From NCBI RefSeq assembly GCF_004010195.1, contig NC_057718.1, positions 65,422,287 to 65,486,286 of the forward strand: 64,000 nt of DNA, read 5' to 3'. This document shows, piece after piece, positions 390 to 61,716 of the stretch. The position numbers and the translations under genes are program-made. Below the pieces are notes generated by a model. That model was not told where the DNA came from. It ran no database searches and saw nothing but the letters and a program-made list of their open reading frames with translations. The first letter of the stretch is position 1; each line of letters opens with the position of its first letter. The DNA is from Chiloscyllium plagiosum (lineage: Eukaryota).

Positions 390-391
390 AC

Positions 392-2852: not shown

Positions 2853-4546
2853 CCAAACAAGTATATCTTGTTTGATATACTCCTATATGAAGCACCGTGG
2901 GATGTTTTACAATGACAAAATGTTACATAATGGAAATTGTGTGTTTACCCACCAGCAACCTTCCCGCACATCGGTCAAGTAATTATTTTTCATATACAGT
3001 GTGAACCTAAACAACAAGTGTTGATAGGTTTTTTTTGCCTTAAGTGAACAACAGTTGCATCTGAGTTGGTCTTTGTACATTACTTAACCGAAGCATTTTC
3101 TGGCCTGGGTAACAAACAAAAACAGCACAGCTGTCTGTTATTTGCCTCGTTGCCTCAAGCACTTGAACCCTTTTACTCTTAACATATGCATACACACACA
3201 TATACAGAGACTTACAATGTAGAACGGGATTTAAATCTATGGTCAGTAAGTGAACATACTGCTGTGTGTATCATATCAGAAGATTCCATTTGAAGTCTTG
3301 ATTTGAATCTACCAATCCCTTGATCCATGAAAGCGATTTTGTAGGTGGAGTATGGGTCATAGAATTCATTGCTTTTTTTTTCTGCTGAACTGCCAACCCC
3401 TGATCTTGTAATTGCTTAACATGTGGAAGACAAATCCTTGGGTTCATTAATGGCCACTTAAAGATCATAATTTTTCAGCAAGCGAAAGGAGAATGCTGAT
3501 GACAGAGAGAGACCTTCCTTGCTTGGACCTCAGGTGGGAAAGTGGGTGTGCATCCCATTTGGCCCTCTTTTCTGATAGAAGGCTGCCCTAACGTCTCTCC
3601 GCACCTCCATATCCTGCCCCCAGACATCTCTCCTAGGCTTGTTGCTGGCCTGTGGATCTCAGGTCTCTATGTTCCTAAGCTCTCCAGCCAAGCCTCCTGT
3701 CATTGTCCTAGCAATGGCATCCAGAATGGCACTGATCACAGCTGAGAATTATCAGCCAATCAGATTTGCTGGCAGCTATCAAACAGGGCTTCCTGCACAG
3801 ATGAAGTCTTGTTTTTTTTCTCAAGCCAATTTTATAGAATCCCCACAATTGATGCCCCTTAGAGCAAGTCTCATAGATTGTTGCCTGTGGTCTATTCTGC
3901 ACTGCTTGATTTCAATCAAAACTGTAGCCAGGTCATTAGGACCATAGAAGACCCTTAAGCTTTCTCTATCTCGGAAATCTATTGCAGCAGAAATGGACCT
4001 CCAGTTTCATTTACCTATCTCAGTTCCGTGTCACTTGATACCCTTACTGATTACAAAAAAAAACTGTCAATTTTAATATTAAAACTCCAAACATTCACAA
4101 GTTTTTTTGGGGAAAGAATTACAGAATTTCTCCAGCTTTTGTGAAAAGGAGGTATCTCTGATGTCCATCCTAAATGACCTAGCTCTAATTTTGTGATCAT
4201 GTGCCCTTGTTCACAATTTCCAAAGAAAGAAAACTGATTCACTGGGATGATTGGTTTGGGTTGGAGGCAGTCCTGGTAAATCCAGTATTTGGAAAGTGTC
4301 AAAGGTTCCTGTATTAGATTTTCAAAAAGGTGGGCTAAGGATATGGGAGTATGTCATGAGATGAAACCTGCTACCCACACAGCTTCAACTAGTTGCTTGT
4401 TGAGCTAGTTGCATAGATGGTTAGATGTTCTGGGAACAAACTATTCACAACTTTCAAATGGCCAACACAGGGAACACAGAGTGTCTAGAACATTATTAAA
4501 AATCACACAATACCAGGTTATAGTCCAACAGGTTTAATTGGAAGCA

Positions 4547-4581
4547 CACTAGCTTTCGGAGCGACGCTCCTTCATCAGGTG
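4547..4581 (-). ncRNA. Hammerhead motif (family B), left arm
   Basis: Reverse complement of the motif at 305-339. Confidence 0.75.
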
Positions 4582-4974
4582 ATAGTGGAGGGCTCGATCG
4601 TAACACAGAATTTATAGCAAAAATTTGCAGTGTGATGTAACTGAAATACATTGGAAAATTGATTGTCTGTTAAGCCTTTCATCTGTTAGAATACAGTGAT
4701 AGTTTCACTTCTTTCATGTGTAAATCACAAAACCTTTTTTTAAAAGTTGCATTCTCGGGTTAGCTGTTAACAATGGCGATAGCTAGACAATATGTTGAAG
4801 GTGTTAGCCCCCTGTGTTCTCTGTCCTGATGTTTAGATTGATTCTAATCTAAAAGGTGAGATAATAGTTTTACATAAATTCATGCAGTTTTTGAGCTCAG
4901 AATTCTAAATGAATGTATGCAGTTTTTGAGCAAATTGCAATGTAACTCTGCAAGTACAAATTCACCCCACAAAA

Positions 4975-5205
4975 TATATGTGTGCATGTGGGTCATTGTC
5001 TATCTGCGTGTGTGTGTGTCTGTCTGGGGTGGGAGTTGTGAGTGTGAAAAAGTGTGTGTGTGTAGTGAGTGCAGAGTGTCTTAAGTCTGTGAGGGGGTGC
5101 ATGTGTGAGTGTGGGAGTGTGTGTGTCTATAAAGGTGTGTGTGTGTCTCTGTGTGCGCGTCTGTGTGTACCTGTGTCCGTGTGTATGTGAGAGTGTGTGT
5201 ATGTA
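4975..5205. repeat. Degenerate (GT)n tract in the family B 3' UTR
   Basis: GT-rich low-complexity sequence between the ORF stop and the ribozyme. Confidence 0.9.
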
Positions 5206-5489
5206 GTGCATTGGTGATCACCTGTAATGTGACATGAACCCAAGGTCCCGGTTGAGGCCCTCCCTAAGGGTACCGAACTTAGCTATCAGCTTCTGCTCGG
5301 CCACTTTCCTCTGCTGCCTGTCCCGAAGTCCACCTTGGAGGATTGTCATCCGAAGGTCCGAGGCTGAATGTCCTGGACCACTGAAGTGTTCCCCAATAGT
5401 GGTCCACGACATTCAGCCTCGGACCTTCGGGTGACCATCCTCCAAGGTGGACTTCGGGACAGGCAGCAGAGGAAAGTGGCCGAGCAGAG

Positions 5490-5987
5490 NNNNNNNNNNN
5501 NNNNNNNNNNNNNNNNNNNNNNNNNNNNNNNNNNNNNNNNNNNNNNNNNNNNNNNNNNNNNNNNNNNNNNNNNNNNNNNNNNNNNNNNNNNNNNNNNNNN
5601 NNNNNNNNNNNNNNNNNNNNNNNNNNNNNNNNNNNNNNNNNNNNNNNNNNNNNNNNNNNNNNNNNNNNNNNNNNNNNNNNNNNNNNNNNNNNNNNNNNNN
5701 NNNNNNNNNNNNNNNNNNNNNNNNNNNNNNNNNNNNNNNNNNNNNNNNNNNNNNNNNNNNNNNNNNNNNNNNNNNNNNNNNNNNNNNNNNNNNNNNNNNN
5801 NNNNNNNNNNNNNNNNNNNNNNNNNNNNNNNNNNNNNNNNNNNNNNNNNNNNNNNNNNNNNNNNNNNNNNNNNNNNNNNNNNNNNNNNNNNNNNNNNNNN
5901 NNNNNNNNNNNNNNNNNNNNNNNNNNNNNNNNNNNNNNNNNNNNNNNNNNNNNNNNNNNNNNNNNNNNNNNNNNNNNNNNNNNNNNN
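5490..5987. other. Assembly gap
   Basis: Run of N. Confidence 1.
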
Positions 5988-6027
5988 TTTGCTATAAATT
6001 CTGTGTTATGATCGAGCCCTCCACTAC

Positions 6028-6062
6028 CACCTGATGAAGGAGCGTCGCTCCGAAAGCTAGTG
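6028..6062 (+). ncRNA. Hammerhead motif (family B), right arm
   Basis: CAC-CTGATGA-A-GGAGC-GTC-GCTCC-GAAAGCTA-GTG. Confidence 0.75.
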
Positions 6063-6705
6063 TGCTTCCAATTAAACCTGTTGGACTATAACCTGGTGTT
6101 GTGTGATTTCTAACTTTGTACACCCCAGTCCAACACCGGCATGTCCAAATCATGTCTAGAACATGTTTCAGTCCAGCTGCTAGAAATGCAACAAGGAGTC
6201 ATTAATGCTCATGATTACTGTGTGAAAATGTGATACAATAGGATGTGAAATTCACAAAGTTATGTAGGGCACAGTCATCACTGCAGATCCTGAGAGGCTT
6301 GATTTTGTAAGGAGACAGTGTTAGACTCTTCAAAGGAATGGGTGGCTGCTAACCTCTGAAGCTTTCTCTAGCTATATCTGCTTGGTCAATTTGGTTTAGC
6401 TCTCCCTTCAGGGAGAAGCTAACCATCCTGTCAGCCACACGCTCGATCAGAGTATCAAGAAATACATCAGCAAAATGTGTCCTTCTTTGAGGATTGCTGT
6501 CCTAAATCCCCCTCCCCCCCAGCTCTATGTTTGCTTAGTCCATCCATTTGCAAAGGCAACAGCAAGCCCAGTCATGAGTGCCATTCAAATAACCCATTTT
6601 TTTTCCTAGTTCCCATCTCGTGCTCATGCCTGACTCCCTCATTTGGGCACCAAACCCGCCTTCAGGTCAATTTGTAACTGCAGTTTTGAAAACTGTGCAC
6701 ACTGA

Positions 6706-9106
6706 CATAGAGTCATAGAGACATAGAGATGTACAGCACAGAAACAAATCCTTTAGTCCAACTTGTCCATGCCAACCAGCTATCCCAACCTAATCTAGTC
6801 CCATTTGCCAGCACTTGGCCCATATCCCTCTAAATCCTTTCTATTCATGTACCCATCCAGATGCCTTTTAGATATTGTAATTGTGCCAGCCTCCACTACT
6901 TCCTGTGCAGCTCATTCCAAACACGCACCACCCTCTGCATGAAAACGTTGCCCCGTAGGTCCCTTTTAAATTTTTCCCCTCTCACCTTAAACCTATGTCC
7001 TCTAGTTCTGGACTCCCACGCCCCAGGGAAAAGACCTTGTTTATTTTCCCTATCCATGCCCCTCATGATTTTATAAACCTCTATAAGGTCACTATTCAGC
7101 CTCCAATGCTCCAGGGAAAATAGTCCCAACCTATTCAGCCTCTTCCTATAGCTCAAATCCTACAATCCTGGCAATATGCTTGTAAATCTTTTCTGAACCC
7201 TTTCAAGTTTCACAACATCTTTCCAATAGGAAAGAGACCAGAAGGTGTACACAACATTCCAAAAGTGGCCTAACCAATGTACTGTACAGCTACAACATGA
7301 CTTCCCAACTCCTGTACTCAATTCTCTGACCAATAAAGGAAAGCATACCAAACACCTTCTTTACTATCCTATCCACTTGCAATTCCACTTTCAAACAACT
7401 ATGATCTTGCGCTCCAAGGTCTCTTTGTTCAGCAACATTCCCTAGGACCTTACCATTAAGTGTGTAAGTCCTGCTAAGATTTGGTTTTCTAAAATGCAGC
7501 ACCTCGCATTTATCTAAATTGCACTCCATCTGCCACTCCGCAGCTCATTGGCTCATCTGATCAAGTTCCAGCAATAAAGTTTCATCTGATCAAGATCCCA
7601 TTGTACGCTGAGGTAACCTACTTCACTGTCTACTACACCTCCAATTTTGATGTTACCTCCAAACTTACTAACTAGACCTCCTATGTTCACATCCCAATCA
7701 TTTATATAAATGAAGAAAAGTAGTGGACCCAGCACCGATCCTTATGGCACAGCAGTGGTCACAGACCTCCAGTTTGGAAAGCAACCCTCCAGCACCACCC
7801 TGTCTTCTACCTTCAAGCCAGTTCTATATCAAAATGGCTAGTTCTCCCTGTATTCCAAGAGATCTAACTTTGTCGAACGCCTTACTGAAGTCCATATAGA
7901 TCACATCCATCGCTTTGGCCTCATCAATTCTCTTTGTTACTTCTTCATAAAACTCAATCAAGTTTGTGAGACATGATTTCTCATGCACAAAGTCATGCTG
8001 ACTATCCCTTGTCGGTCCTTGCCTTTCCAAATACATGTACATCCTGTCCCTCAGGATTCCCTCCAACAACCTGCTCACCACCAATGTCAGACTCACCAGT
8101 CTATAGTTCCCTGGCTTTTCCTTACCACCTTTCTTAAATATTGGCACTATATTTGCCGACCTCCAGTCTTCTGGCACCTCACCTGTGACTATCGATGATA
8201 CAAATATCTCAGCAAGAGGCCCAACAATTACTTCCCCAGCTTCCCACAGAATTCTAGAGTACACCTGATCAGGTCCTGGGGATTTATCCACTTTTATGCG
8301 TTTCAAGACATCTAGCACATCCTCCTCTGTAATATTGACATTTTTCAAGATGTAACCATCCATTTCTCCACATACTATATCTTCCACGTCCTTATCTACA
8401 GTAAACACTGATGCAAAATACTTGTTTAGTATCTTCTACGGTTCCACACAAAGGCCGCCTTGCTGATCTTTGAGGGTCCCTGTTCTATCCTTAGTTACCC
8501 TTTTGTTCTTAATATATTTTGTAAAATCCCTTTGTATTCTCTTTAACCCTATTTGCCAAAGCTATCTCATGTCCCCTTTTTATCCTCCTGATTTCCCTTT
8601 TAAGTATACTACTACTGCCTTTACACTGTAAGGATTCACTTAATCTATCTTGTCTGTACCTGACATATGTTTCCTTCCTTTTCTTAACCAAAATCTCAAT
8701 TTCTCTAGTCATCCAGCATTCCCTACACCTACCAGCCTTTCCTTTTGCCCTAACAGCAAGATACTATCTCTGGACTCTCATTATCTCATTTTTGTAGGTT
8801 TCCCATTTTCCAGCCATCCCTTTACTTGCAAATATCTGCGCCCAATCAGCTTTTGAAAGTTCTTGCCTAATACCATCAAAATTGGCCTTCCTCCAAGTTA
8901 GAACTTCAACTTTTCGATCTCGTCTATCCTTTTCCATTGATATTTTAAAACTAATAGAATTATGGTCTCTGGCCCCAAAGTGCTCCCCCACTGACACCTC
9001 AGTCACCTGTTCTGCCTTACCTCCCAAGAGTAGGTCAAGATTTGCACCTTCTCTATTAGATACATCCACATATTGAATCAGAAAATTTTATTGTACACAT
9101 TTAAAT
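6706..9106 (-). mobile_element. CR1/HER1 LINE, 5'-truncated ORF2 with frameshifts
   Basis: Peptides KSPGPDQVY, GNYRLVSLT, KSCLTNLIEF, YMDFSKAFDK, VVKLERVQKRFT; (CTCTATGA)-type 3' repeat at 6706. Confidence 0.95.
7566..7581 (+). mobile_element. 16-19 nt Penelope-like family A micro-insertion inside CR1
   Basis: ttccagcaataaagtt(tca) matches the right arm of the 28.3 kb element; flanked by duplicated tcatctgatcaag at 7553-7565 and 7582-7594. Confidence 0.75.
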
Positions 9107-9159
9107 TCCAGGTTGGAAGCCCAACCATGAATGAGCATTCACCCCATTGTATCGACCCT

Positions 9160-10915: not shown

Positions 10916-11513
10916 TTCTTTAATTCATGATCTTATCGAACTGAAAATGTAGGAATCCATGGAATTTTCCATTCTTGCACATCTTTCAACATCTTTGCAC
11001 TTAGCATGTACTCCTAGTTGATGCTTCATTTCACAAAAACAACTTGTACTTCCTTGGATTAGCTTTGATTCCCATTTCTATTAGCCTTTCCATCTTCTTC
11101 TGACCTTCAAAGTTTCTTTCATCAATATTTGCAACTATTATGTGCACTTTGTTGGCTTGATCCAAATGATCAATGTTCTCAAAAACAAATGTCTTCGACA
11201 TTGGGGTATTCATTTCCAATGTTTTCCTAATCTGACCAATCTTTACTGGCCCTCACCTTTTCTTAGACAATTTGTCAATACAGTGATAAGTATTTTTTGT
11301 CACATACAGGATTGTATTTTATATAAACCTGGAAATTCTGCACTATATCCTGCATAATCATCTTAACAAAACAAAATTCTGATCTCAAATTATGCCTCAA
11401 AAACTTGTGGCACTAAGGAGTTAGAATCCTTCTTTACTTGTTCAACTCAATTGAAATAGATGTTAAGGCTAATTGTAATATTCCTCCTGTTACTTTGCTG
11501 GAGATCAGCTCAT

Positions 11514-12049: not shown

Positions 12050-12770
12050 AAATCCAAGTTCCAGTATCCTGTCAACTCAATTAGGAATCTTACATATTTC
12101 AATAAAATCACCCTCATTACTCTAAATACCAAAGAGTATGGGCCTAACTTATTTAACCTTTCATCCCAGAAAGTGATCTAGTGAACATTCATATTCTGCC
12201 ACCAACATGCTCTTTGTGTCCTCAAACCTTGTAATTCCATTCGACTTTTCATACTTAGAAAACTTGGATACATTACTTAGTTTAAGCCATTGATATAGAT
12301 TTAGGTGCCAATACTGACCTTGTAGTGCTCCACTAGGTTGGTAATTTGAAAATGCTACAGTTAGCCCTAGTTCCTATTTACTGTCCATTACGCTGTCTTC
12401 CATCCATGCTAATCCATTATTCCCAATATTATTTTGCTTTATACCTTATCAAATGTCATTTTTAAGAATCCAAATAAACTATATTTACATCCTCGAAAAA
12501 CTTTAAGGCATTTTTGCCAAACAAAACTCCCTTTCACAAAACCCAGATTGATTTTCTGATCAGACTATGATTTTCTAAGTGCATTGTTTAGACAGTCGAA
12601 TAATTGTTTTCAACATTTTTCAAAGAGTGATATCAGTCAATTGACCTGTAATTCTTTCTTTTCTCTTTTCCTTCTTTTTTGAGTTCAGCTTGCTAACTTT
12701 CCATCTGTTCTAGAATCAAGATGATTTTGTAAGATTATCAGAAAATCTGCAATTTGTAGCCAGCTGGTTA
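12050..12770 (-). mobile_element. Highly decayed CR1 fragments
   Basis: Patchy similarity to CR1 RT segments elsewhere in the window. Confidence 0.5.
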
Positions 12771-12782
12771 CTGTTTATGATA

Positions 12783-12953
12783 AGAAAGTAAGGACTGAAG
12801 ATGCTGGTGATCAGAGTCAAGGGTGTGGTGCTGGAAAAGCATAGCAGGTCTGGCAGCATCAAGGAGCAGGAGAACTGACGTTTCAGGCATAAACCTTTCG
12901 ACTAGAAGGGCTGATGCCCGAAACACAATTCTCCTGCTCCTCGGAAGCTGCCT
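12783..12953. mobile_element. Degenerate family A palindromic mini-element
   Basis: Tail-bearing arm (-) then short arm (+), joined inside the hammerhead region. Confidence 0.75.
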
Positions 12954-13858
12954 ACTCTTTACTGTAGTAACTAATTGTATTCCACTGTGAAGACACAAAA
13001 TAATTGTTCAACATCAATTTCTCATGGTAATTTTTCCTCTTTCTGCCTCCTCCCATTCCACTTCATTGAACTCAATCAGCATGTACATTGTTCCTCAAAT
13101 ATTTAATTACCCTAGTTAAATGCATCATTGGTATTTGCCTCAAATACTTGTGGTAGCAAGTTCCATATTCTTATTACTCTGGGAAAAGAGATTTCTCTTA
13201 AGTTCCATCCTGAATTTATTAATAATTGTGACAGGATATATGGAATATATCCTGAAGAGATTTAAAGGCAGTATATTCTCAGGCTCTTGGGGCAGCAGGA
13301 ACTGAAGATACCAGAGTTCAATTTCAGAGCAACCAAGTTTGAACCAATATGCTGGCTACATAAAATCATCAGTACAGTCAAAGATTAAGCTGGTGACTTG
13401 TCTGCCCAGTATCCTTTAAACTAAGCAAACAATTGAGTAAATCTGTTTTACTATTTAATTGTTTACTTGTTAATTTGAAAAAAAATTAATCACTCTTGCA
13501 TCCAGATTGCTCCCTTTAAGGTCACAAAATCTGTTATGACTTTTACAATAAAATGAAATAAACTTTCTGCTATGTCAGGTGAGCTGGTATTTTGCAAACA
13601 TAGTTTATCATCATCATCACCTTCACTTTCCTAATGTGCAAATAGAAAAATACTGCTCTGTACCAAGCAATTAATCAAAAGAATTAAATAGAATGCAGTT
13701 TCCATCTCTATAAAACTGTAATTCTCCCTTAAACTTAATGATATACATAATGTATTAGGAAGTTTGGAAAACTGTACACGGGGGTTTAGAAATTCTAAAA
13801 TCCTCTGAGACTTCAGAATGTACTAATTAACTGGCAGTAAAATTCTCAAAAGGTTATT

Positions 13859-13880: not shown

Positions 13881-14018
13881 CAAAAGGTTTTTATAGCCCA
13901 TTATACTTACTTGAAGACAATCTGCAGAGCTTTTTTTTCTCCTTTGTTCTGGTCAATCTATGTTCTTTAATCATCATCAAAATACATTTAGTAGTCAGTA
14001 TCATGGTTGTTGTGAAAC

Positions 14019-14521
14019 TATGAGAAGTTTGGTGGGTGCGGCTGTCCCAGAGATGTTCTCTGAAACACCCACCAACCCAACTGCCCTGTGGTTGAACACT
14101 TCAACACCCCCTCCCACTCCATCAAGGACATGCAGGTCCTGAGCCTCCTCCAGCACCAAACCGTTACCACTGAACACCTGGAGGAGGAACGCCTTGGGAC
14201 CCTGCAACCACACGGGATAAACGTGGATTTCAACAGTTTCCTCATTCCCCCTCCCCTCACATTATCCCAGTCCCAAGGCTGCAACTCGTCACCACCCTCC
14301 AGACCTTCTATCACTCCCCCTCTGATCTATCACCTTCTCCCTCACCTTTATCCACCTATCACTTTTCAGCTACCCGCCCCACCCACTCCCTCCCATTTAT
14401 CGCTCAGCCCCGGCCCACAAGCCTCATTCCTCATGAAGGATTTATGCCTGAAGCGTCGATTCTCCTGCTCCTCGGATGCTGCCTGACCTGCTGTGCTTTC
14501 CCAGCAAAACACTCTCAATTC
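14019..14521 (+). mobile_element. Penelope-like family A 3' fragment with short 5' inversion
   Basis: VEHFNTPSHSIKDMQVL...GTLQPHGINVDF endonuclease C-terminus, degenerate hammerhead, TSD ttgttgtgaaac at 14007-14018 and 14522-14533. Confidence 0.85.
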
Positions 14522-15423
14522 TTGTTGTGAAACGCTGTTCTGCTTCATCCAGTATATACCCAGATGGTTATACTCGAGAAGAACTTCAACTATAAAAGGG
14601 CTCTATGGCATCCTGAAGTTGTGAAATGTGTTAATAACTGCAAGTTATTAAAGTTGACATAGTATCCTTTATCTTTCAAAAAAATACAGTTTTCATAAAA
14701 CTTGAAAGAAAAACACAACAAGAACAATTGACTTGAATATTACAGAATTTACTACAAAATTCTACTTGTCCCAATATAGTATGTTCCATTCCATATGATT
14801 GTCAGAGTCTTAACATTTACGAAATACACGCCAGTGTATAGCCTGAGGGAAAAACATTTCGAACATTTCATAAAATGTGCTTCCATTTCATTTTTCAAAG
14901 AAAAGCTGGAGAGTTTCTTTTTCCTAATCCTGCCACTGTAAGTGAAGACACAAAAAGTAGATTGTAGCTACTTATGTTGGTCTTAATCTTACTTTTTTGA
15001 CTAAGTGTCAGTGGCATTGAAGTTATAGGAAACGTTTTCACTCTGAGACTGAGTGAGATTTCTCGCTGTATCTTACCAAATGTGCCTCATTAACTACCTA
15101 GCCTATCTTTAGGACAGCCCTCATGTTTAATTCTATCCCAACCTTACCGTGTGCTGTTCCAGAAAGAAGTCACCACTCATTGGACATCTGCAAACAACTA
15201 GCATCCCTGGCACCCATGCCATCTTTGAAAGGCCACTGTGCACCCTGACAGAATTACCAATGTGGTTTTGCCCTTCAATGTAATGGCACAGCGGTCACAG
15301 GTCTGTGCTGCTCCTTGCACATAGCCAGCAGTGCTGATACTCATACTTCATTTGCTCACCCTCGCTGTCTTTTAATCATTATGCCATATACTTTCTTGTC
15401 TGTAGCAACATCCTGTCTATATG

Positions 15424-18099: not shown

Positions 18100-18139
18100 T
18101 AATCACGCAATTTTCCTACCCTCTGACTTGCTCTTATTG

Positions 18140-18851
18140 CTGGACAGAACACCCCTGGTCCTCACCTTCCACCCCACCAACCTCCACTTACATCACATCA
18201 TCCTCCACCATTTCCATTACCTACAAACGGACTACACCACCACAGATATATAATTCCCTCCCCACCCCTATCCGCTTGTTCCCTCCTTGACTACCTGGTC
18301 AGGTCCACGACCTCCCCCACCCCCCCAACCAACTCACCTTCCTGTCCCGGCACCTTCCCTTTCCATTGCAGGAATCACAAAACCTGCACCCACACCTCCC
18401 TCCTCACCACCATCCAGGGCCACAAAGGAGCCTTCCACATCCAAAGTTTCACCTGCACTTCCACACATTTCATTTACTGTATCAGTTGCTCCTGATGCAG
18501 TCTCCTCTACATTGGGGAGAGTGGACGCCTACTCATAGAACTATTCAGAGTAAATCTCCGAACACCCGCACCAACCAACCCCACTGTCCTGTGGCTGAAC
18601 ATTTCAACTCCGAGGACATGCAGGTCCTTGGCCACCTCTATCGCCGCTCCCTTACCACCCGACACCTGGAGGAAGAATGCCTCATTTTCTGCCTTGGGAG
18701 CCTTCAACCCCAGGGCATCAATGTGGATTTCACCAGTTTCCTCATTTCCCCTCCCCCCACCTTCCTGATGAAGGGCTTTTGCCCGAAACATCGATTTTCC
18801 TGCTCCTTGGATGCTGCCTGTCCTGCTGTGCTTTTCTAGCGCCACTCTGAT
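18140..18851 (+). mobile_element. Penelope-like (Neptune-type) family A fragment with GIY-YIG domain
   Basis: Encodes TCTSTHFIYCISCS*CSLLYIGESGR (IY...YIG) preceded by a Cys/His cluster; hammerhead at about 18763-18793; TSD cttgctcttattg at 18127-18139 and 18852-18864. Confidence 0.9.
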
Positions 18852-19270
18852 CTTGCTCTTATTGTTAGTTCAGTTCAGTTTCTAGGTAATATTTTGGGAC
18901 TTTACTTTAAAATTGGCTCATTTAAGTGGATTTTTTTTATTGATGACAAGAAAAAAAAAGCCATGACAGCTGTGCCAATTCCCAATTGTCTAAATCCCTA
19001 TTTTACACTGTATATATGAAAGGAAGGGAATACACAATGTACTGAAGATCTCGTAGTGTCTAAAGTACAAAATATGCACAGGTGAATTTTAAAAAAAATT
19101 TGAATTCCATTCAAACCCATTTCCAACCTCTGGAAATATTCAGGAAGATGACACCTAAACCACTGAAGGAGGTGGGTGGAACATTTCAATATTATAATGA
19201 GGCTGGATGTCTCATATCTAACCTGTCTTCCAGAGTTGAACTGATCAGCCATGTACCAAACAATGGACTT

Positions 19271-19520
19271 ATGAGCTGAAAATGTGTTGCTGGAAAAGTG
19301 CAGCAGGTCAGGCAGCATCCAAGGAACAGGAGAATCGATGTTTCGGGCATAAGCCCTTCTTCAGGAATGAGGCTGGAAGCCTCAGGGGTGGATCCTGAAG
19401 AAGGGATTATGCCCGAAACGTGGATTCTCCTGTTCCTTGGATGCTGCCTGACCTGCTGCACTTTTCCAGCAACACATTTTCAGCTCTGATCTCCAGCATC
19501 TGCAGTCCTCACTTTCCCCT
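19271..19520. mobile_element. Family A palindromic mini-element with two head-to-head hammerhead motifs
   Basis: Arms about 19274-19374 (-) and 19393-19520 (+); TSD caatggactt at 19261-19270 and 19521-19530. Confidence 0.9.
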
Positions 19521-19529
19521 CAATGGACT

Positions 19530-20263
19530 TGTAAGGCACGCTGGGAAATTGAGGCAGACCTTGGCCAAAGTTACTGTGCTCAAAGACTCTGAAATAAACA
19601 AGGTGCAGAACCCAGACAAGCTGCAGCTACACTCGACAGTATACAATTGACCCAGGAGCTGCAGACAATACAATATACACTTGAATTTGAATTGAATGGA
19701 ATTGACCTGAATGCCATCCCCAGGGTAATTGAAAACATGGATTTGTTTAATGGACAAAAAAGCGCCTCACACCCTTATTTGGAAAGGGCTACCTGACCTA
19801 CGTGTCCCCAACAGCTCCAGGAATGGATGCCCAAGGGCCACCCTGGCATCAACATGTCGATGCCTGATTGGGTCCGATCGATCAGGATGTTTGAATCCTG
19901 ATTGATCTTTTGGTGGATATTGAAGACCTCCCAAAAGGATGCAAAGACTTCCAAGTATAAGATTCACCACAACACCACCCTCAGCAGCGGTAACCTGAGA
20001 CCAACCAATGAGAAGAGAAGACACCCCTGGTGCCACCAGGACAATTATCGGCTTGCGGATCAAGGTCAAGATCTAGTGTGGTGGTATATGATCATCCAGG
20101 ATTAAATTAAAGCACAAGATATTTGATTAGATTTATAGTGTAGATTGTTAAGTTGTATAGTATTTTTATTCTAATATCAATTGCATTAATAATAAGTGAT
20201 AATATTTATTTGTTTAAGAGTTGACTTGCAGTTTCTTTGCTAATTATTAGAGTTAAACTTACA
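19530..20263 (+). mobile_element. Possible solo LTR
   Basis: TGTAAG...CTTACA termini and an AT-rich U5-like end; no TSD found. Confidence 0.4.
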
Positions 20264-20298
20264 GTGTGACAGGCACAGTAAGGTTTCTACAAACATGG

Positions 20299-20817
20299 AC
20301 ACACGTACCAAACAACCCCACTACCCCATGGCTGACTACTTCAATGCCCCACTTCAATTCCCACTCGCCAAGGACATGCAAGTCCTGGGTTTCTGCTACC
20401 ACCAAATCTTTGCTACCCGACACTTGGAGGAAGAATGCCTCATCTTCCGCCTTGGGACCCTCCAACCACATGGTATCATTGATTTCACCAGTTTCCCCAT
20501 CTCCCCTTCCCCAACCTTGTTGCAGATCCAACCCTCCAACTTGGCACCACCCTCTTGAACTTCTTCCACTTGCCCATCTTCCTTCCCAACTATCCGCTCC
20601 ATCTTATCACCGTATCACCCCCTACCTGCACTACCTATTGCCTTCCAAGCAACCTTTCCACCCAGCTCTACTCCTCTCCCATTTATCTCTCAGCCCCCTT
20701 GGGCCCTCCACTCCCCACCATTCCTGATGAAGGGTCTATGCCTGAAACATAGATGCTCCTGCTTCTCAGATGCTGCCTGACCTGCTGTATTTTTCCAGCG
20801 CCACACTTTTTGATTCT
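20299..20817 (+). mobile_element. Penelope-like family A 3' fragment
   Basis: KDMQVLG...RHLEEECLIFRLGTLQPHGI; degenerate hammerhead at about 20724; TSD gtttctaca(a/g)acatgg at 20283-20298 and 20818-20833. Confidence 0.85.
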
Positions 20818-20867
20818 GTTTCTACAGACATGGCAGCTAAAGATATGCAAGGCAAGCTTTTGTGGAA

Positions 20868-24870: not shown

Positions 24871-26117
24871 GGGCTTCATTATTCCCTGGCTGAAACCCCA
24901 ATACTATCCCCTCTGCCTGGCTAACATCATCCTATTTATATGTAGTTCTTTGCTCCTCTTGAATTTTTCCCTTCCAGCTTGCTGTTTCCTGGGTTTGCTG
25001 ACTCCCAAGATGCTACAGCAGCCTATCAATACCTTGCTCATCAAATGCAAGCTTCAGCTTCATAATTGAGCCTGTTCTCACATATTTACACTTTGCAGCA
25101 GATGATGATATTTCTTTTCTTGGTAATACTGAAACCAATTGTTGGAAACAAACACTGCCTGGCCCCTGGGCAGAGATCTGTTAAGTTAGCATTCTCTGGA
25201 TATTGACCATCATACCAGCTTGGCCTGCAAGTCTTATTTGTTATGATCCACATGAAGAAACTGTAAAACAAACCAAAATTCACCAAATCACTCCCAGAAG
25301 AGAAACGGCCATGATTTGTAACTTTAACAGAAGTAATAATCAATAAAAAGAATAATATCTTACAAGGCCACAAACAGACATCACATTTTGTACAGTTCCA
25401 CAATATTATTCTCTATTCACCCAGAGTAACTCCGGTAGTACTACCTAACAACATCCTTGGCCTTTTAGTTTCACAGTTTTGATTATCAGCAGCAAGTCAC
25501 ACTTCTATGAGCCTTTCTCCTTGGCTCATGACAGTCCCAAAGATAACTTGCCAAACCTCCTTAACCAAACAAATTAAACCATTGTTTGGCCATTTCTGGA
25601 AAACATCTAACTCAAAGACATTCACACAGTTTTCCAGGGTTTTAGACTTATTTAGCTAACAATGCCTCCAAGAGATTCTGTCTCTTTTTCTGTCAAACAG
25701 AACAACTGAGCTCTTCATGAGATTCCTGACTTGCTTCTTCTCACAAGACTTCTGTGTTCCTCCTTCTATCTCAGCTTTTTCCTTCTTGCCTGTATCTGTG
25801 TGCTGATCATCTTCACCCCCCAACTCTATTACTTCTTTAGTTCTCTTCTATGACTGCAGTTCTGCTGTGTGCTTGCCAATCACATAGCTTCATTCTTAAC
25901 TTCCTACTTGTTGGTACTGCTTCCAGGTTAAGGGTCACCAGGTCACATGACAGGTACTTCATATTAACAAAGAGGCACAGTTAATCCATTTACTCAAAGT
26001 CCTGAAAATTCTTTAAAATAATTATACTTTTCAGTCATTCTAAAGAAATTACAAATATTCTTTACAGTTCTACTTAGATTTATGATCTATTACCATACTC
26101 ACTGTCCTCTTTGCTAC

Positions 26118-26274
26118 TAAGTCCAAAGTCACACAACACCAGTTTATAGTCCAACAGGTTTATTTGAAATCACAAGCCTTCAGAACACAACCCCTTCATC
26201 AGGTGAAGCCACTGGAGTTGTGACTTCTGATTTTGTCCACCCTAGTTCAATACCGGCACCTGTGCATCATGGCA
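26118..26274. mobile_element. Family B-related palindromic mini-element
   Basis: Minus arm with degenerate hammerhead plus a short tail-bearing plus arm; TSD tcctctttgctac at 26105-26117 and 26275-26287. Confidence 0.8.
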
Positions 26275-26299
26275 TCCTCTTTGCTACCGTAAGGAATAT

Positions 26300-31125: not shown

Positions 31126-31129
31126 CAAC

Positions 31130-37753: not shown

Positions 37754-38509
37754 TCAAAGTTTGTGCGAAGATTTGTAGCTCGGGTGCTCGTTGCTGTGGT
37801 TCTGTTCGCCGAGCTGGAAGTTTTTGTTGCAAACGTTTCGTCCCCTGGCTAAGCGACATCATCAGTGCTTGGGAGCCTCCTGCGAAGCGCTTCTTTGATG
37901 TTTCCTCCGGTGTTTATAGTGGTCTGTCCCTGCCACTTCCGGTTGTCAGTTTCAGCTGTCCGCTGTAGTGGTTGGTATATTGGGTCCAGGTCAATGTGTT
38001 TGTTGATGGAGTTTGTGGATGAATGCCATGCCTCTAGGAATTCCCTGGCTGTTCTCTGTCTGGCTTGCCCTATGATAGTAGTGTTGTCCCAGTCGAATTC
38101 ATGTTGCTTGTTGTCTGCGTGTGTGGCTACTAAGGATAGCTGGTCATATCGTTTCGTGGCTAGTTGATGTTCATGTATGCGGATTGTTAGCTGTCTTCCT
38201 GTTTGTCCTATATAGTGTTTAGTGCAGTCCTTGCATGGTATTTTGTACACTACATTCGTCTTGCTCATGTTGGGTAAGGGGTCCTTCGTTCTGGTGAGTT
38301 GTTGTCTGAGCGTGGCTGTTGGTTTGTGTGCCGTTATGAGTCCTAGGGGTCGCAGTAGTCTGGCTGTCAGTTCCGAGATGCTCCTGATGTATGGTCGTGT
38401 GGCTAGTCCTTTTGGTTGTGGTATGTCCTCGTTCCGTGGTCTTTCTCTTAGGCATAAGAGGCTCCCAAGCACTGATGAGTGCCCTATGATTGAACCACAG
38501 AACCACAGC
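37754..38509 (-). mobile_element. Penelope-like (Penelope/Poseidon-type) family C 3' fragment with GIY-YIG domain
   Basis: NVVYKIPCKDCTKHYIGQTGRQLTIRIHEH...REFLEAW..SIN; TSD atagtattaccat at 37741-37753 and 38510-38522; short inverted pieces at 38458-38510. Confidence 0.95.
37829..37868 (-). ncRNA. Hammerhead motif (family C)
   Basis: Minus strand GCA-CTGATGA-T-GTC...GAC-GAAACGTT-TGC, overlapping the ORF stop; stem I GCA/TGC; predicted cleavage after GTT. Confidence 0.75.
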
Positions 38510-39429
38510 ATAGTATTACCATAATATATTTACATGAAACAATTACTAACTTGTCTCCTGTTTAGAGAATTCACATAATCAAATTTTGTTTTTGAATTGA
38601 TAAGATCCTGTGAACCTGGCTTTCAATAGTTCCCCAGAAACAAGGAATACCTTGTCTCTATCAACAACATTTTGAGTTTTCACAGCTACTTGACACATTA
38701 GTTGGAAATATAGCCTCTGAGCTGTGATTTATAATTTTATCTTTAATTCTAATTCTAAATCCTCATACCTCACATCCTTACATCAGTTCAACAGGACTGA
38801 ACTTGTTAGGGGCAAATTTAATGGCTAACAATACAAAGGAACTCTTTTATCCCAATCATTGGGCATTCTTGACAATAAACTCTAATCATGTCATTTCAAT
38901 GCTCCTTAAGATTCTGGTTGAGGAACACGAGACAGAAATTGTTTTATTCTCAAATTAATAATTATTTATTTGAATATTAGGGACATAAAATTAGAATTTT
39001 GATCTGATTGTATTATTTTGGGTTAACTTTATTTTGCAAAAGACTGAACTATTTTTTCCTTCATAAGCTCCTCTGGAAGATAAATTGTATTATTAGCCAG
39101 CATCAGGGACTGCCTTACTCTAAAGTTTATCAATATCTTTACAAGGTTAGAAGAATAATACCTTTCCCATATTCCACCAGAATCAGTGAAACAGAAAATT
39201 ATTTTTTGATTTCTTGATTATGATTTGAGAGTTCAATGAATCTCACTTAAATACATTTTTATTTCCTAAAATTGGGGAATTGTAGCCTCAAAGTGACTCC
39301 TGTAGCACTCTACATTTAACAAATGATTAAATAAGAACAATCTGATGCTAAAAGTAGAAGATTCAAAGAGACAAAGGACATAGATAATTAAAATGTCAAG
39401 ATCCAAAACAGAAAATAATCCAAACCATT

Positions 39430-44371: not shown

Positions 44372-44625
44372 AAGTGGAGTGATGCTGACATAGTAGTAAT
44401 GTCAATGGACTTGAAGAAGGGCTTATGCCCGAAACGTCGATTCTCCTGTTCCCTGGATGCTGCCTGACCTGCTGCGCTTTTCCAGCAACACATTTCCAGC
44501 TCTGATCTCCAGCATCTGCAGACCTCACTTTCTCCTCAAAGATAGTAACCCATAGTTCCAGGATAATTTTCTGGGCATGTGAGCTTGAATCCAACCATGG
44601 TAAATGGGTGAAAATTTAATTTGAT
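44372..44625 (+). mobile_element. Old tRNA-derived SINE head, split by a family A insertion
   Basis: Box A-like tgacatagtagt and box B-like cttgaatcc; sequence resumes after 44543. Confidence 0.5.
44411..44537 (+). mobile_element. Family A single-arm mini-element with tail
   Basis: Begins at the hammerhead core (tgaagaagggcttatgcccgaaacgtc), ends ctcactttctcct; no TSD seen. Confidence 0.9.
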
Positions 44626-45980: not shown

Positions 45981-46970
45981 AAATAATACATAGGTCAGTT
46001 TGAGCAAAGGGTTAGCTTTAGGTAGTATAAAATGTGTTAATATTCTTCATATATTATTCAGAGGGTCAGATGGTGGGTTAGGGAGATACGGTATGAAATG
46101 CAGACCTAGATACAGTGCTGAAGATGATCAATGACCCCACACAAGTGATCATGGTTAAATCCCATAACCCAGTGATTGCACCACTAGCTTCAATGCTCAA
46201 ATCATCACACTCTCGCCAATCATCTGCCAACAGTCTCAATCTATTGGGACACTTCTAACATTATTGCTTCACCTCAGCTTCTCATATCTCACAATGTTCC
46301 AAGACTCACATCCATATTCCATAACTTGCAAAGATTGCCAGTGAGTCAACCATGACAAGCACATTTAGAAAACGTATCGCATGACACCTACTGATACGCT
46401 TCCCTCTTCTTTGAAGGCACAATTAGAGGTAGCAATAGCTAAGTTGACATCCTGAGCCCAATGGTGGAAATGGTCTGATCATTACTGGAAAATATATTGC
46501 CGTGACCCTTTCCAGCCACAGGGACAAAACCAAAGAAGATGACAGTGTAATTATAATGAATCCCTTTCCAAACTGAAGATGGTAAAAGCATGAATCTTTT
46601 ACTTTTACTGCTCTATGGATCTATGGGAAGGTCACTCAGGAGCTCAATGATGACGAGAAGAACCGAAGATTGTGTGAGAAAGGTCACGCTGGGCCATGGT
46701 GACCAAGCACGATGAATCTCACTCAACAAAACCCTAACTGCAAATGGGACAATTCAGCCCAATATAATTCTGTGACATAACATTAAATAGATACTGCTTG
46801 TTCATTTTCTACTGCTACTAAATGTTTTTCCATTTAAAATATAAAATACTCTTTTTTTTTTCAGTGAATAACTGGGAATTCAAATTTCTTTTTAGAAGTT
46901 ACTGATCTCTATAGAGACTTGCATAATCATAACAACAGTAGATAAAATCAACCTGCTCCAAAGATTAAGT

Positions 46971-47172
46971 ACCAAAACAGAAATTGCTGGAAAAAGCATA
47001 GTAGATCTGGTAGCATCTGTGGAGAGAAAGTAGAGTTAATGTGTCAGGTCCAGTGACCAGAAACATTAACACTGTTTTCTCTCCACAAATGCTGCCAAAA
47101 CTGCTGTGTTTTTCTAGCAATTTCTGATTTTGCTCCTGATTTGCAGCATCTGCAATTCTTTGGTTTTTATTT
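46971..47172. mobile_element. Family D palindromic mini-element (older)
   Basis: Inverted arms meet in the hammerhead stem II region; the right arm has an extra tail of about 38 nt; degenerate TSD ccaaagattaagt/cccaagtttaagt. Confidence 0.75.
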
Positions 47173-47381
47173 CCCCAAGTTTAAGTGGTTGATCTGTTCT
47201 AATTGTGTTGGTGTGGACATGTTCCCTTGACGAATGTATGTTCCAGATTGCAAGGTTAAGACAGGGTATTGGCTGGAGCACTGAGATCTAAAATTACAGT
47301 GCTGCTGCCAAATCAACATTGCATGCTGACTAATGTCATGATCTGTCTTTCCGGCAGACTACTGAGGATATTCATTATGTA

Positions 47382-53070: not shown

Positions 53071-53074
53071 GAAA

Positions 53075-53260
53075 GTCTAGGCACTCAAGCATATATTAAT
53101 GATTAAAATGAAGGAAAACTTAAAGAAGTATCTGAAGAAAGATCAAGACCAGAATATGGGATGTAAATGCTATGGGAGACACAAGAAGGAAAAGGAAGCA
53201 TGCTCAGCATAGAGAAAGCAGCACTCTAACTGCAAGAAGCTGAAATACGTATTTACTGGA
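53075..53260 (+). mobile_element. Gypsy gag remnant (3' part, zinc knuckle region)
   Basis: Degenerate CK..GRH...EACSA..KQ.SNCKK. Confidence 0.55.
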
Positions 53261-53269
53261 AAAAAACAA

Positions 53270-53427
53270 GCTGAAAATGTGTTGCTGGAAAAGGGCTTAT
53301 GCCCTGAAGAAGGGCTTATGCCCGAAACGTCGATTCTCCTGTTCCCTGGATGCTGCCTGACCTGCTGCGCTTTTCCAGCAACACATTTTCAGCTCTGATC
53401 TCCAGCATCTGCAGACCTCACTTTCTC
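53270..53427. mobile_element. Family A element with a ~25 nt inverted arm and duplicated stem II
   Basis: Intact hammerhead core at about 53304-53331; TSD ctgg(A7/A8)caa at 53256-53269 and 53428-53442. Confidence 0.9.
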
Positions 53428-53639
53428 CTGGAAAAAAAACAAAACATGTCTGTAAAAATGGTTGCTGATAGGATTTTGGGTAATGATTCTGGTGAAACAC
53501 TTACACCATAGAAGAGACTGGTGTTGCCAAGTTTCAAGGAAAAGAATGGTTTGTGATTGTTAGAATGATGGCTGCAAAAGGAGAATATCCAGTTAATATG
53601 AAGTGCCAGATAGACAGTGCTACATTCGGCTTCATGAAC

Positions 53640-59269: not shown

Positions 59270-59790
59270 AGTTGGCATATTGGTCCAATTCCAAATGTTA
59301 TACTTTAGCAAGAATAGGAAAGCATCAAAGAGAGTGTATAAAAGATTTATCAGATGAGAAACTTTGATAACATGAGTAAATTAAAAAGCTGGAGCTGTTC
59401 TCCTCAGAGAAGATTGAGAGGACATTTGATAGATCTGTTCAATATCACGAGATTTTGGACAGAGTGAAAAAATGGAGAACATGTTCCCATTGCTGATAAA
59501 GTCAAAAAGCAAGGGACACAAATTTAAGATGACTGACAAAAGCAGCAATGACGACAAGAGGCAAAACTCTTTTATGCAGTGAGTGGTTATGATCTGAAAC
59601 ACACTGCCAGAGACGGTGATGAAGTTATATTGAACCATGACTTTCAAAAGAGAACTGGATAATTACCTCAAAAGACAGAAATCTGCAGGTTTGCGGGAGA
59701 TCAGGTGAATTGATCTTGCATAGAGCCAGTATGGTTATAATGGGCCAAATGGCTTCCTTCTGTATTTGATCTATTTGATGATTCTACGAA
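59270..59790 (+). mobile_element. Decayed CR1 3' fragment
   Basis: KLELFSS.RRLRG.LI..F.I remnants. Confidence 0.7.
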
Positions 59791-60365
59791 TGCAATATTC
59801 TGCTTCCAGTGGTAATGTGGTTTGAGTTGGGTCAGGCATTTAATTAGGTGGGTGGTGGCCTACCTGGGTACTGCCTTCATGCCGAAATTAACTACTGGAC
59901 AATAAGACCTGTGGTCAACCTTCCAGTCTACCACCCTGAAGTGGCTAATTAAAGACCTTTTTAAGGACCTCACCCTGCAGTTGGTGGGATAACCCAACTG
60001 CAAGATAGCCCGTCCATGTCTCATAATAAATGCTTTAAGTGTTTGATAGCATTCCTTAATACATGATAAGATATAGACATTTTTCTGTTGTCACATTATA
60101 TGATGCACTAAATGCAGTTAGAATAAACTACAATTGTATAGTTCAGCTTCTATACTTTGGGCAGTTTGTTACCTTGTTCAGGGGCTCCCTTGATTTAAGG
60201 CAATCAGTGTCCAACTGAGGGTTGGACATTGGCAAGGAGGTGCCTGCTATGAGCCACTCTCCTGCCATTATTGCTGGCTTCCTCTATCTCAATTCCTCCA
60301 CTTTCCACGTCCCTGAAGCTGAGAACACTCTGCCAGCTCTCCAATGTACTTAACTATAACCTGAA

Positions 60366-61067
60366 TCATAGAGTCATAGAGATGTCCACCATGGAAACAG
60401 ACCCTTCGGTCTATCTCATCCATGCCGACTTGACATCCTAAATTAATCTAGTCCCACTTGCCAGCACTTGCCCATATCCATCTAAACCTTCCTATAAATA
60501 TACCATCCAGGTGCCTTTTAAATGTTGTAATTGTACCAGACTCCACCAGTTCCTCTGGCAGCTCATTCCATACACACACTGCCCTCTGTGTGAAAAAGTT
60601 GTCCCTTAGGTCCCTTTTAAATCTTTCCCCTCTCACCCTAAACCTAGCCCTCTAGTTCTGGACTTCCCCAATCCTGGGAAAAGGTCTTGTCTATTTACCC
60701 TATCCATGCCCCTCAAGATTTTATAGACCTCTATAAGGTCACCTCTCAGCTTCTGATGCTCCAGAGAAACAACCCCAGCCTATTCAGCCTCCCCCTATAG
60801 CTCAAACCCTCCAACCCTGGCAACATCCTTGTAAATCTTTTCTGAACCTTTTCAAGTTTCACAACATCATAGGAGGGAGAGCATAATTGCACACAATATT
60901 CCAAAAGTGGCCTGTACAAATACCTGTACAGCCACAACATGACCACCCAACTTCTATGCGCAATGCTCTGACCAATAAAGGAAAGCATTCCAAACGCCTT
61001 CTTCACTATCCTATCTACCTGTGACCCAACTTTCAAGGAGCTATGAACCTACATTCCAAGGTCTCTT
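60366..61067 (-). mobile_element. CR1/HER1 3' fragment
   Basis: RPLLEYCVQ, VVKLEKVQKRFTRMLPG, VWNELP. Confidence 0.92.
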
Positions 61068-61159
61068 CTTGATACTCTGTCAGTGCTCCTTCAGCAGAAG
61101 CCACGGCCTTCTCCATGGAACTAATAAGTGAAAGAACTGCTAGCCTCTAATTCACCAGC

Positions 61160-61383
61160 TGAAAATGTGTTGCTGGAAAAGCGCAGCAGGTCAGGCAGCA
61201 TCCAAGGAGCAGGAGAATCGACGTTTCGGGCATGAGCCCTTCTTCAGGAATTTTCTTTCCTGAAGAAGGGCTCATGCCCGAAACTTTGATTCTCCTGCTC
61301 CTTGGATGCTGCCTGACCTGCTGCGCTTTTCCAGCAACACATTTTTAGCTCTTGATCTCCAGCATCTGCAGTCCTCACTTTCT
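61160..61383. mobile_element. Family A palindromic mini-element with two hammerhead motifs
   Basis: Left (-) core intact, right (+) core mutated; 16-bp TSD cctctaattcaccagc at 61144-61159 and 61384-61399. Confidence 0.93.
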
Positions 61384-61716
61384 CCTCTAATTCACCAGCA
61401 TCTCTCACTTGGTAGAACTTTCATTCCCAGGACCTAATTCTGGGTATGGCCAGCTAACTAGCTTCACTAGTGCCTGATTGACCGAGAGTTAACATTTTGT
61501 CATTTTTTGCTGAATTCTGAAATTCTCTGAATCCTCAGGTTTGCTGCTTTGCTGCTTATTCATCCCCTCTTTGAATATAATACTATCCATAGTTTCTTTT
61601 GTAAGCTGTGCTTGCACCACCTTTCCTCTTAATTTTGTGTCAGTCAGGATAATTGCTGCAATTCATGCACTTTTTTTTTAAATACTCTATTGCCTATTGC
61701 CTAGTCACTATCATCC

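What the first reader, a model, noticed from the sequence alone, without database searches (positions are those of the whole stretch)
4482..61399. Asymmetric palindromic insertions with a constant 33-39 nt arm offset across unrelated families: priming at two sites
Seen: TSD-flanked insertions consist of two 3' ends pointing outward. One arm stops at a fixed internal point and the other carries an extra tail: family A about 33 nt (61351-61383), family B 39 nt (6114-6152), family C 38 nt (37754-37791), family D about 38 nt (near 47135-47172). Several single-arm copies (81-389, 7566, 13859) also stop at that internal point. TSDs are mostly 12-16 bp and often share 2-4 nt with the element end. Established: Penelope elements have inverted pseudo-LTRs and a short 3' tail, and as I recall internal initiation has been reported for one Penelope-like RT. 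Inference: both ends of the staggered cut prime reverse transcription on the same RNA, one internally and one at the terminus. The tail may be the protein-binding handle, and the two cDNAs join centrally. A length conserved across sequence-divergent families suggests a ruler mechanism.
Basis: partly seen in the sequence, partly recalled or inferred. Interest (0 to 1): 0.8.

Follow-up and report, generated by a model that had tools for sequence, protein, structure and literature searches.

The report
Penelope retroelement one-tailed inverted insertions
The lopsided mirror-image insertions are real and are the long-described landing scars of Penelope-like jumping genes in a shark-like genome; their 35-39-base overhang likely marks two copying start points inside the element's RNA, as already shown in vitro for a lizard element, so this is ordinary rather than new.

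Summary
Observation largely confirmed. Eight of 8 two-armed, TSD-flanked insertions carry the tail on exactly one arm; 5 of 5 TSD-flanked single arms lack it. Reads pile up at the family A tail end in 4 of 4 runs. Families B and C encode Penelope-like RT/GIY-YIG remnants; A, B and C carry minimal hammerhead motifs. The one-sided 30-40 nt tail, inverted pLTRs and TSDs are in print (PMC3846280, PMC8557442), and PMC11167929 showed both strands primed, with two RT start sites bounding the tail. Corrections: offsets are family-specific (35, 38, 39), D is related to A, and microhomology is near chance. The outer site is likely not the RNA end: family C's tail encodes residues ~24-36 of the next ORF. 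Unpublished as far as searched: a one-site-per-arm rule, and a 7-9 bp arm-tail helix around the inner site (weak support). This scan noted the same architecture before on other pieces of this genome. Already known; interest 0.2.

The parts
4482..6164 (.). Family B two-armed insertion: TSD 4482-4493 and 6153-6164; untailed arm 4496-5397 (-), centre 5397/5398, tailed arm 5398-6152 (+) with assembly gap 5490-5987
6114..6152 (+). Family B tail, 39 nt
5221..5397 (-). C-terminus of family B ORF (76-92% identical to shark proteins; P0041 has RT, Cys linker, GIY-YIG-type motif)
78..390 (+). Family B single arm, untailed, no TSD found; abuts a family A arm (1-77) cut by the window edge
7553..7594 (+). 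Subfamily A' 16-nt single arm ending at inner site, 13-bp TSD
12768..12965 (.). Older family A two-armed insertion, left arm tailed, right arm cut short; 7-bp candidate TSD; not scored
13847..13889 (+). Family A 25-nt single arm ending at inner site, 9-bp TSD
14007..14533 (+). Family A long single arm, untailed, 12-bp TSD, decayed ORF end
18127..18864 (+). Family A long single arm, untailed (ends 0-7 nt past inner site), 13-bp TSD, decayed GIY-YIG-type coding remnant
19261..19530 (.). Family A two-armed insertion, 10-bp TSD; untailed arm 19273-19373 (-), tailed arm 19393-19520 (+), mosaic centre
20283..20833 (+). Family A long single arm, untailed, 16-bp TSD with one mismatch
26105..26287 (.). 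B-like two-armed insertion, 13-bp TSD; untailed arm 26119-26205 (-) is about 70 nt longer at its 5' side than the tailed arm 26213-26274 (+)
28261..28502 (.). Subfamily A' two-armed insertion, 15-bp TSD; tail 28276-28307 (-), arms 100% complementary over 84 nt
37741..38522 (.). Family C insertion, 13-bp TSD; long tailed arm 37754-38454 (-), short mosaic untailed arm 38458-38509 (+)
37852..38448 (-). 199-aa C-terminal ORF remnant with GIY-YIG endonuclease (87-89% identical to RT-bearing shark proteins)
37752..37859 (-). 36-codon start of the next tandem ORF, from the ATG behind the hammerhead core through the tail (37754-37791)
44411..44542 (+). Family A tailed single arm, no TSD, 6 nt beyond the usual tail end; empty site in two related organisms
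46961..47186 (.). Family D (A-related, old) two-armed insertion; 10-bp TSD with one mismatch; tail about 47133-47176
53256..53441 (.). Family A two-armed insertion, 14-bp TSD (A-run length differs); 24-nt untailed arm (-), tailed arm 53304-53427 (+)
61144..61399 (.). Family A two-armed insertion, 16-bp TSD; untailed arm 61157-61250 (-), tailed arm 61257-61383 (+), tail 61351-61383
61729..61815 (+). D-like single arm, untailed, no TSD found
63578..64000 (.). B-like untailed inverted arm (-) followed by a sense arm coding for an RT-thumb remnant, cut by the window end

Best explanation
These are TSD-flanked, 5'-truncated insertions of at least three Penelope-like retroelement families, and the one-sided 35-39 nt tail likely arises because the element's enzyme nicks both target strands and likely primes one cDNA at an inner and the other at an outer start site, both predicted to lie inside the RNA. 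Steps: (1) the GIY-YIG endonuclease cuts the two strands about 9-16 nt apart (TSD shown; enzyme inferred from PMC11167929). (2) Both 3' ends prime on sense RNA downstream of the hammerhead, 40-63 nt (inner) and 78-98 nt (outer) from the predicted ribozyme cut (distances shown; priming inferred). (3) One primer takes each site, so one arm carries the tail (pattern shown, 8 of 8; cause inferred). The inner site is likely the default, since 5 of 5 TSD-flanked single arms end there. (4) Both cDNAs stop early, often at the hammerhead's 5' edge (10 of 16 family A arms), and are joined through short template jumps or end-joining (mosaic centres shown; pathway inferred). Whether one RNA or two sister RNAs serve a protein dimer is open.
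For: PLE identity: family C: GIY-YIG remnant 87-89% identical to shark proteins, some with RT; family B; family A remnants. One event per insertion: shared TSDs; for family C, contigs of two related organisms end at both TSD copies at equal depth, which I read as an empty site (tables 3 and 8; no joint row was listed). Two end clusters in reads: family A loose ends at 44535-44536 in 4 of 4 runs (X1 397+958, X9 471+900, X15 410+825 contigs, X21 149+415 reads) with mixed flanks, and at 44492-44495 (X1 377+210, X9 328+254), which I read as inner-site ends clipped at a variant of the laid copy. Outer site internal; family C's tail ends about 108-110 nt after the ATG, PAc's start is at 111-118 (PMC11167929); the Adineta tail also codes for ORF residues 13-22 (PMC3846280). 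Each arm reached the template on its own: the untailed arm holds 5' sequence that the tailed arm lacks at 26105 (about 70 nt), 28261 (about 9 nt) and 19261 (about 8 nt, mosaic), while the tailed arm holds the tail. PAc cleaves and extends both strands and is predicted to be a dimer.
Against: In vitro PAc showed no difference in start site between top and bottom strands; that fits random strand assignment but does not show one site per arm. Among the loose-end rows shown, outer ends outnumber inner ends (X1 1355 against 587), which 'inner by default' does not predict; only 24 rows of 6326 were shown and inner ends are spread over more positions. A tailed single arm without TSD exists (44411-44542). 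The old pair at 11480-11860 has a full tail on one arm and about 12 nt of tail on the other, with no TSD. n = 8 from one window. For families A and B no full-length element was obtained, so 'internal' rests there on a 6-nt extension (A) and on analogy (B).
Confidence: 0.65

Rival explanations
1. Fold-back or endonuclease resolution: one priming at the outer site; the cDNA snaps back and copies itself, and the second end is set by endonuclease cutting or a block about 35 nt short of the start.
For: Partner arms are nearest neighbours; a 7-bp hairpin sits in the 19373-19393 centre; PMC3846280 proposes self-priming and PMC8557442 ascribes the tail to EN-mediated resolution; the D. virilis tail is needed for EN recognition (as cited in PMC11167929).
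Against: A fold-back copy cannot hold sequence absent from the tailed arm, yet it does in 3 of 8 insertions, unless deleted later. 5 of 5 TSD-flanked single arms end at the inner site without any fold-back. PAc starts RT at both sites in vitro.
Confidence: 0.2
2. One reading: one priming is internal, the other at the RNA's physical 3' end; the tail is a terminal protein handle measured by a fixed ruler.
For: The outer end is sharp in 4 of 4 runs. PMC11167929 reports RNA-seq read ends at both start sites. Processing of the RNA at the outer site in vivo is not excluded.
Against: The tail is coding sequence of the next ORF in family C; template extends past the site in family A (44537-44542; also a joint 44542 to 44412 at depth 74 against about 8 for single copy); PAc is inactive with RNA shorter than +172; poly(A) RNA reads reaching 44536 run on into mixed sequence and no sharp RNA end was listed (the library is ill suited to see one). 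Offsets differ by family.
Confidence: 0.1
3. Two independent insertions, or later recombination or gene conversion, brought a tailed and an untailed copy together.
For: Penelope copies are dense in this genome; conversion could explain shared arm variants; the 11480-11860 pair lacks a TSD.
Against: One TSD encloses both arms in 8 insertions; partner arms are always the same subfamily; independence gives 8 of 8 discordant with P = 0.004.
Confidence: 0.03

Closest known systems
PAc, Poseidon element of Anolis carolinensis (Frangieh et al. 2024, PMC11167929)
   Same: RT plus C-terminal GIY-YIG; ORF start just behind the hammerhead core; both strands cut and extended; two start sites bounding a 30-40 nt tail; outer site about 110 nt into the ORF (family C: 108-110).
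   Different: The text I read does not discuss inverted two-armed insertions, TSDs or one site per arm. Families A and B show no matching frame that I could tie to a full-length ORF.
EN+ PLE insertion unit with inverted pLTR and optional tail (Arkhipova et al. 2013, PMC3846280; Craig et al. 2021, PMC8557442)
   Same: Inverted 5'-truncated copy, tail of 30-40 bp at one end only, tail within the ORF start, TSD around the whole unit.
   Different: TSDs here are 9-16 bp (maximal calls) against 8-10 bp in Adineta; most units here are 150-250 bp stubs; those papers favour self-priming or EN resolution.
Minimal hammerheads of metazoan PLEs (Cervera and De la Pena 2014, PMC4209133)
   Same: CUGANGA core, stem II, GAAA, palindromic 4-mer and no helix III; dual motifs on opposite strands 100-700 bp apart are mentioned there.
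   Different: No activity test here; arms stop at the 5' edge of the motif, not at its predicted cut.
LINE-1 twin priming (recalled, not read here)
   Same: Both target strands prime on element RNA, and the cDNAs join to give an inversion inside one TSD.
   Different: In L1 the second primer starts upstream and the two parts do not overlap; here both arms copy the same stretch and point outward from sites about 35 nt apart.

Membership tests
EN+ Penelope-like elements | C-terminal GIY-YIG endonuclease | tested here: met
   Family C remnant with HYIGQTG motif; Pfam GIY-YIG only E 0.065, below cut-off, but 34 homologues at E <= 1e-10, two carrying PF01541. Family B relatives carry the motif. Family A: motif seen in a broken frame only.
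EN+ Penelope-like elements | RT in the same ORF, upstream of the endonuclease | tested here: met
   Shown through close relatives: P0001 (89% identical, PF00078) for C; P0041 (76-78%) for B; RT-thumb remnant at 63824-64000. No RT core found in the PLE copies of the window; family A search found nothing.
EN+ Penelope-like elements | Telomerase-related RT clade by phylogeny; Poseidon or Neptune subclade | not tested
   No tree built. 'Poseidon-type' (C) and 'Neptune-type' (A, B; Cys linker) are recalled labels.
EN+ Penelope-like elements | Minimal hammerhead motif in the pLTR | tested here: met
   Core, stem II, GAAA and ACGU/AGCU read directly in A, B, C. Rfam gave 0 matches at gathering score.
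EN+ Penelope-like elements | Inverted pLTR with 30-40 bp tail at one end, inside a TSD | tested here: met
   8 of 8 two-armed insertions.
EN+ Penelope-like elements | pLTR and tail overlap the start of the ORF | tested here: met
   Family C only; not shown for A or B.
EN+ Penelope-like elements | Full-length partial-tandem copy; retained introns | not testable with these tools
   No full-length copy in the window and no genome held.
PAc-type two-site internal initiation | RT starts at two sites on RNA that extends beyond both | not testable with these tools
   Needs in vitro TPRT; the genomic end pattern is consistent.
MITE or other DNA transposon | Symmetric terminal inverted repeats abutting a short fixed-length TSD | tested here: not met
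   Ends are offset by 35-39 nt, TSDs vary 9-16 bp, centres vary.

The most novel reading that the evidence does not exclude
An ordered site switch on one RNA: a 7-9 bp helix between arm and tail presents the inner site in its loop; first-strand synthesis from there unzips the helix and hands the second nicked strand to the outer site. Every two-armed Penelope insertion would then be one-tailed by rule, and the offset would be set by each family's RNA fold rather than by a protein ruler. Basis: such a helix encloses the inner site in A, B and C (tail-shuffle P 0.07, 0.03, 0.04; combined 0.004, windows chosen after seeing the stems), ends 17-23 nt before the outer site, and 5 of 5 TSD-flanked single arms are untailed. 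No covariation shown, whole-fold z-scores not significant, one cross-family control also reached 7 bp.
Probability: 0.22. Interest if true: 0.55.

Novelty: already known. Interest (0 to 1): 0.2.

Why it matters
The architecture and the two start sites are published, so the finding adds examples, not a new system. Its use is as test material: PLE integration after priming is still unresolved (PMC11167929 leaves these steps open), and this genome holds very many young stubs. A census could settle whether the two target strands must use different sites and whether twin priming or fold-back builds the inverted arm.

Tried and rejected
No genome held, so no genome-wide census. Family A pattern: 0 matches in viral contigs; 5 in metagenome contigs, all chance 23-26 nt matches. 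PLE alignment: none confirmed of 21 candidates in viral contigs; 6 of 15 in genome contigs, of which 4 were examined and none showed a usable pLTR/tail pair. Rfam: 0 matches. Family A peptide search: 1 candidate, none significant. No RNA holder was listed as such; the raw poly(A) run X21 showed a sense bias (C about 54:7 and 71:17 in the first bins; A 404:211, if the first mate reads opposite to the RNA) and no sharp RNA start or end, which this library would likely not show. Folds of 131-136 nt gave z from -1.75 to 0.85 and of 84-96 nt from -1.61 to 0.46; D did not form the arm-tail helix in its minimum-energy fold. One partner pair (19273/19396) shared no private allele. Candidate tail hits at 49566, 11590 and 19651: 49566 was viewed and shows no arm; the other two lie in sequence viewed and were not followed. 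Rejected: MITE, independent insertions, constant ruler, hammerhead cut as cause of truncation (arms stop about 30 nt upstream of the predicted cut). Literature: 6 searches found no paper stating a one-site-per-arm rule or treating shark PLE tails; subscription papers are not covered, and figures 1G, S1 and S2 of PMC11167929 could not be seen and may already show the helix.
Full report
Setting. The window is repeat-rich animal DNA with two assembly gaps (5490-5987, 23400-23910). Its closest named protein matches come from bamboo sharks at 87-92% identity, so I call it shark-like. No whole genome was held.

Observation. A search for direct repeats around 17 candidate sites and end-by-end alignments of 13 of them gave eight two-armed insertions inside one TSD: 4482/6153 (12 bp), 19261/19521 (10), 26105/26275 (13), 28261/28488 (15), 37741/38510 (13), 46961/47177 (10, one mismatch), 53256/53428 (14, A-run length differs) and 61144/61384 (16). 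In all eight both 3' ends point outward and exactly one carries the tail (P = 0.004 under independent choice at 0.5). Five single arms inside a TSD (7553, 13847, 14007, 18127, 20283) all end within about 7 nt of the inner point. Random 40-nt window pairs shared 12 or more letters in 0.025% of 20,000 trials. Not scored: 12768 (7-bp TSD, one arm cut short), 11480-11860 (no TSD; one arm reaches about 12 nt into the tail), 63578 (off the window), and the TSD-less single arms at 78-390, 61729 and 44411. Offsets between fixed anchors are 35 (A), 39 (B) and 38 (C); D is 38-44 and is a relative of A. So the offset is similar but family-specific. Ten of 12 TSDs are 12-16 bp as maximal calls. Overlap between TSD and element at 13 inner junctions is near chance once extension on either side is allowed (P 0.09, 0.19 and 0.04 for 1, 2 and 3 nt); at outer junctions the continuation of the element is mostly unknown, so I did not score them.

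Reads. I laid four runs on 37600-44800: contigs of the same organism (X1, possibly the source sample), of two related organisms (X9, X15), and raw poly(A) RNA reads (X21, about 2% read). Family A loose ends pile at 44535-44536 in all four, with mixed flanks. A second group at 44492-44495 has long loose parts and I read it as inner-site ends clipped at a variant of the laid copy. Only 24 of 6326 loose-end rows were shown, none for family C, and outer ends outnumber inner ends among them, so this is two visible clusters, not a histogram. Both related organisms join 44410 to 44543: that tailed single arm inserted without a TSD and runs 6 nt past the usual end; the same extension appears in a joint at depth 74. 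For family C, contigs of equal depth end at both TSD copies in both related organisms, which I read as an empty site.

Identity. Family C holds a 199-aa ORF end with a GIY-YIG motif; 34 of 2625 candidates scored E <= 1e-10, led by shark proteins at 87-89%, of which P0001 carries RT. Family B's ORF end matched 15 of 24 candidates, including a 643-aa RT protein with a cysteine linker. Family A shows only broken remnants and its search was blank. A, B and C each carry a minimal hammerhead motif read by eye; Rfam found none, as may be expected for minimal forms (PMC4209133).

Where the outer site lies. In family C an ATG directly behind the hammerhead core opens a frame through the tail. Its 36 residues align to residues 7-37 of P0016, an 824-aa full-length relative (15 of 31 identical, E 5e-5; score 60, shuffle maximum 45 of 2000; the other two frames scored 23 and 39; the next best of 34 proteins scored 38). 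The tail therefore ends about 108-110 nt into the ORF of the next tandem copy. PMC11167929 places PAc's start codon at the same spot, an RT start at +111-118, the tail between two start sites, and a minimum RNA of +172. PMC3846280 likewise has the tail extending the pLTR's ORF part from 12 to 22 residues, at one of the inverted pLTRs. The outer site is thus likely internal, unless the RNA is processed there in vivo.

Mechanism. Shown: one TSD around two outward-pointing arms, two fixed end points, one used per arm, partner arms nearest to each other (5 of 6, one tie), mosaic centres, and 10 of 16 family A arms stopping within about 10 nt of the hammerhead core (the copy at the window's first base left out). 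Inferred: staggered nicks, two primings on sense RNA, joining of two short cDNAs. Fold-back from a single tailed cDNA cannot give an untailed arm with extra 5' sequence, as seen at 26105, 28261 and, weakly, 19261, unless deletion followed. One RNA versus two remains open; PAc is predicted to be a dimer and minimal hammerheads are thought to pair as dimers, so two sister templates are plausible.

A lead. The longest arm-tail helix is 7 bp in A, 9 in B and 7 in C; it encloses the inner site and ends 17-23 nt before the outer site. It appears in the minimum-energy and centroid local folds of A, B and C but not D. Shuffle P values are 0.07, 0.03 and 0.04, combined 0.004, with windows chosen after I had seen the stems; the A' arm also pairs 7 bp with the C tail, fold z-scores are not significant, and no covariation was tested. 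PMC11167929 speaks of an AC-rich stem loop at the start site; I could not see its figures.

What was read. PMC11167929: parts 1-2 of 4 (abstract, whole main text, start of methods), passages, and the text layer of two supplementary PDFs; figures, the spreadsheet and the GenBank file not seen. PMC8557442, PMC3846280, PMC8969392 and bioRxiv 10.64898/2026.07.22.740005: passages only. PMC4209133: part 1 of 4 and passages. L1 twin priming, the SINE name HE1 and the clade labels Poseidon and Neptune for these families are recalled.

Earlier scan notes. A look-up by sequence gave nothing. Look-ups by words and by place showed several AI notes on other pieces of this genome with the same reading, including truncation at the hammerhead's front edge, which I had noted before seeing them. 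They are not independent evidence.

Verdict. The terminus and ruler parts of the interpretation are not supported. Interest 0.2.

Noticed in passing
window 44411-44542: Tailed single-arm family A copy with no TSD, 6 nt past the usual tail end, absent in two related organisms; a joint from 44542 back to 44412 at depth 74 hints at head-to-tail units of about 137 nt elsewhere.
   Followed up: partly
window 12899-61261 (family A arms): 10 of 16 arms stop within about 10 nt of the hammerhead core, about 30 nt upstream of its predicted cut; may mark the RNA's 5' end.
   Followed up: partly
window 1540-1706: AT-rich palindrome with 79-nt arms (87%), no TSD found, no other copy in the window; unexplained.
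   Followed up: partly
window 11480-11860: Two old D-like arms head to head, one with full tail, one with about 12 nt of tail, no TSD; possible exception or two separate insertions.
   Followed up: partly
window 7553-7594: The TSD resembles the first ten letters of the tail, as if the target paired loosely with the template at the inner site.
   Followed up: no
window 61491-62541 and 30742-32491: Inverted pairs of older LINE-like fragments (70-80% identity), not part of the Penelope pattern.
   Followed up: no
window 2538-2857, 16663-16983, 21331-21532, 36327-36656, 51575-51905, 61896-62221, 62822-63139: Seven copies of a roughly 320-nt SINE (HE1-type, name recalled).
   Followed up: no
P0005, P0015, P0037: Predicted bamboo shark host proteins (a kinase, a nucleotidase-domain protein, a phosphatase subunit) whose annotated isoforms include Penelope endonuclease sequence; exonisation or annotation artefact.
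   Followed up: no
L006-L009: Penelope-like RT sequences in contigs filed under bacterial MAGs, likely animal contamination; L006 has a 457-bp inversion and a hammerhead-like motif.
   Followed up: partly
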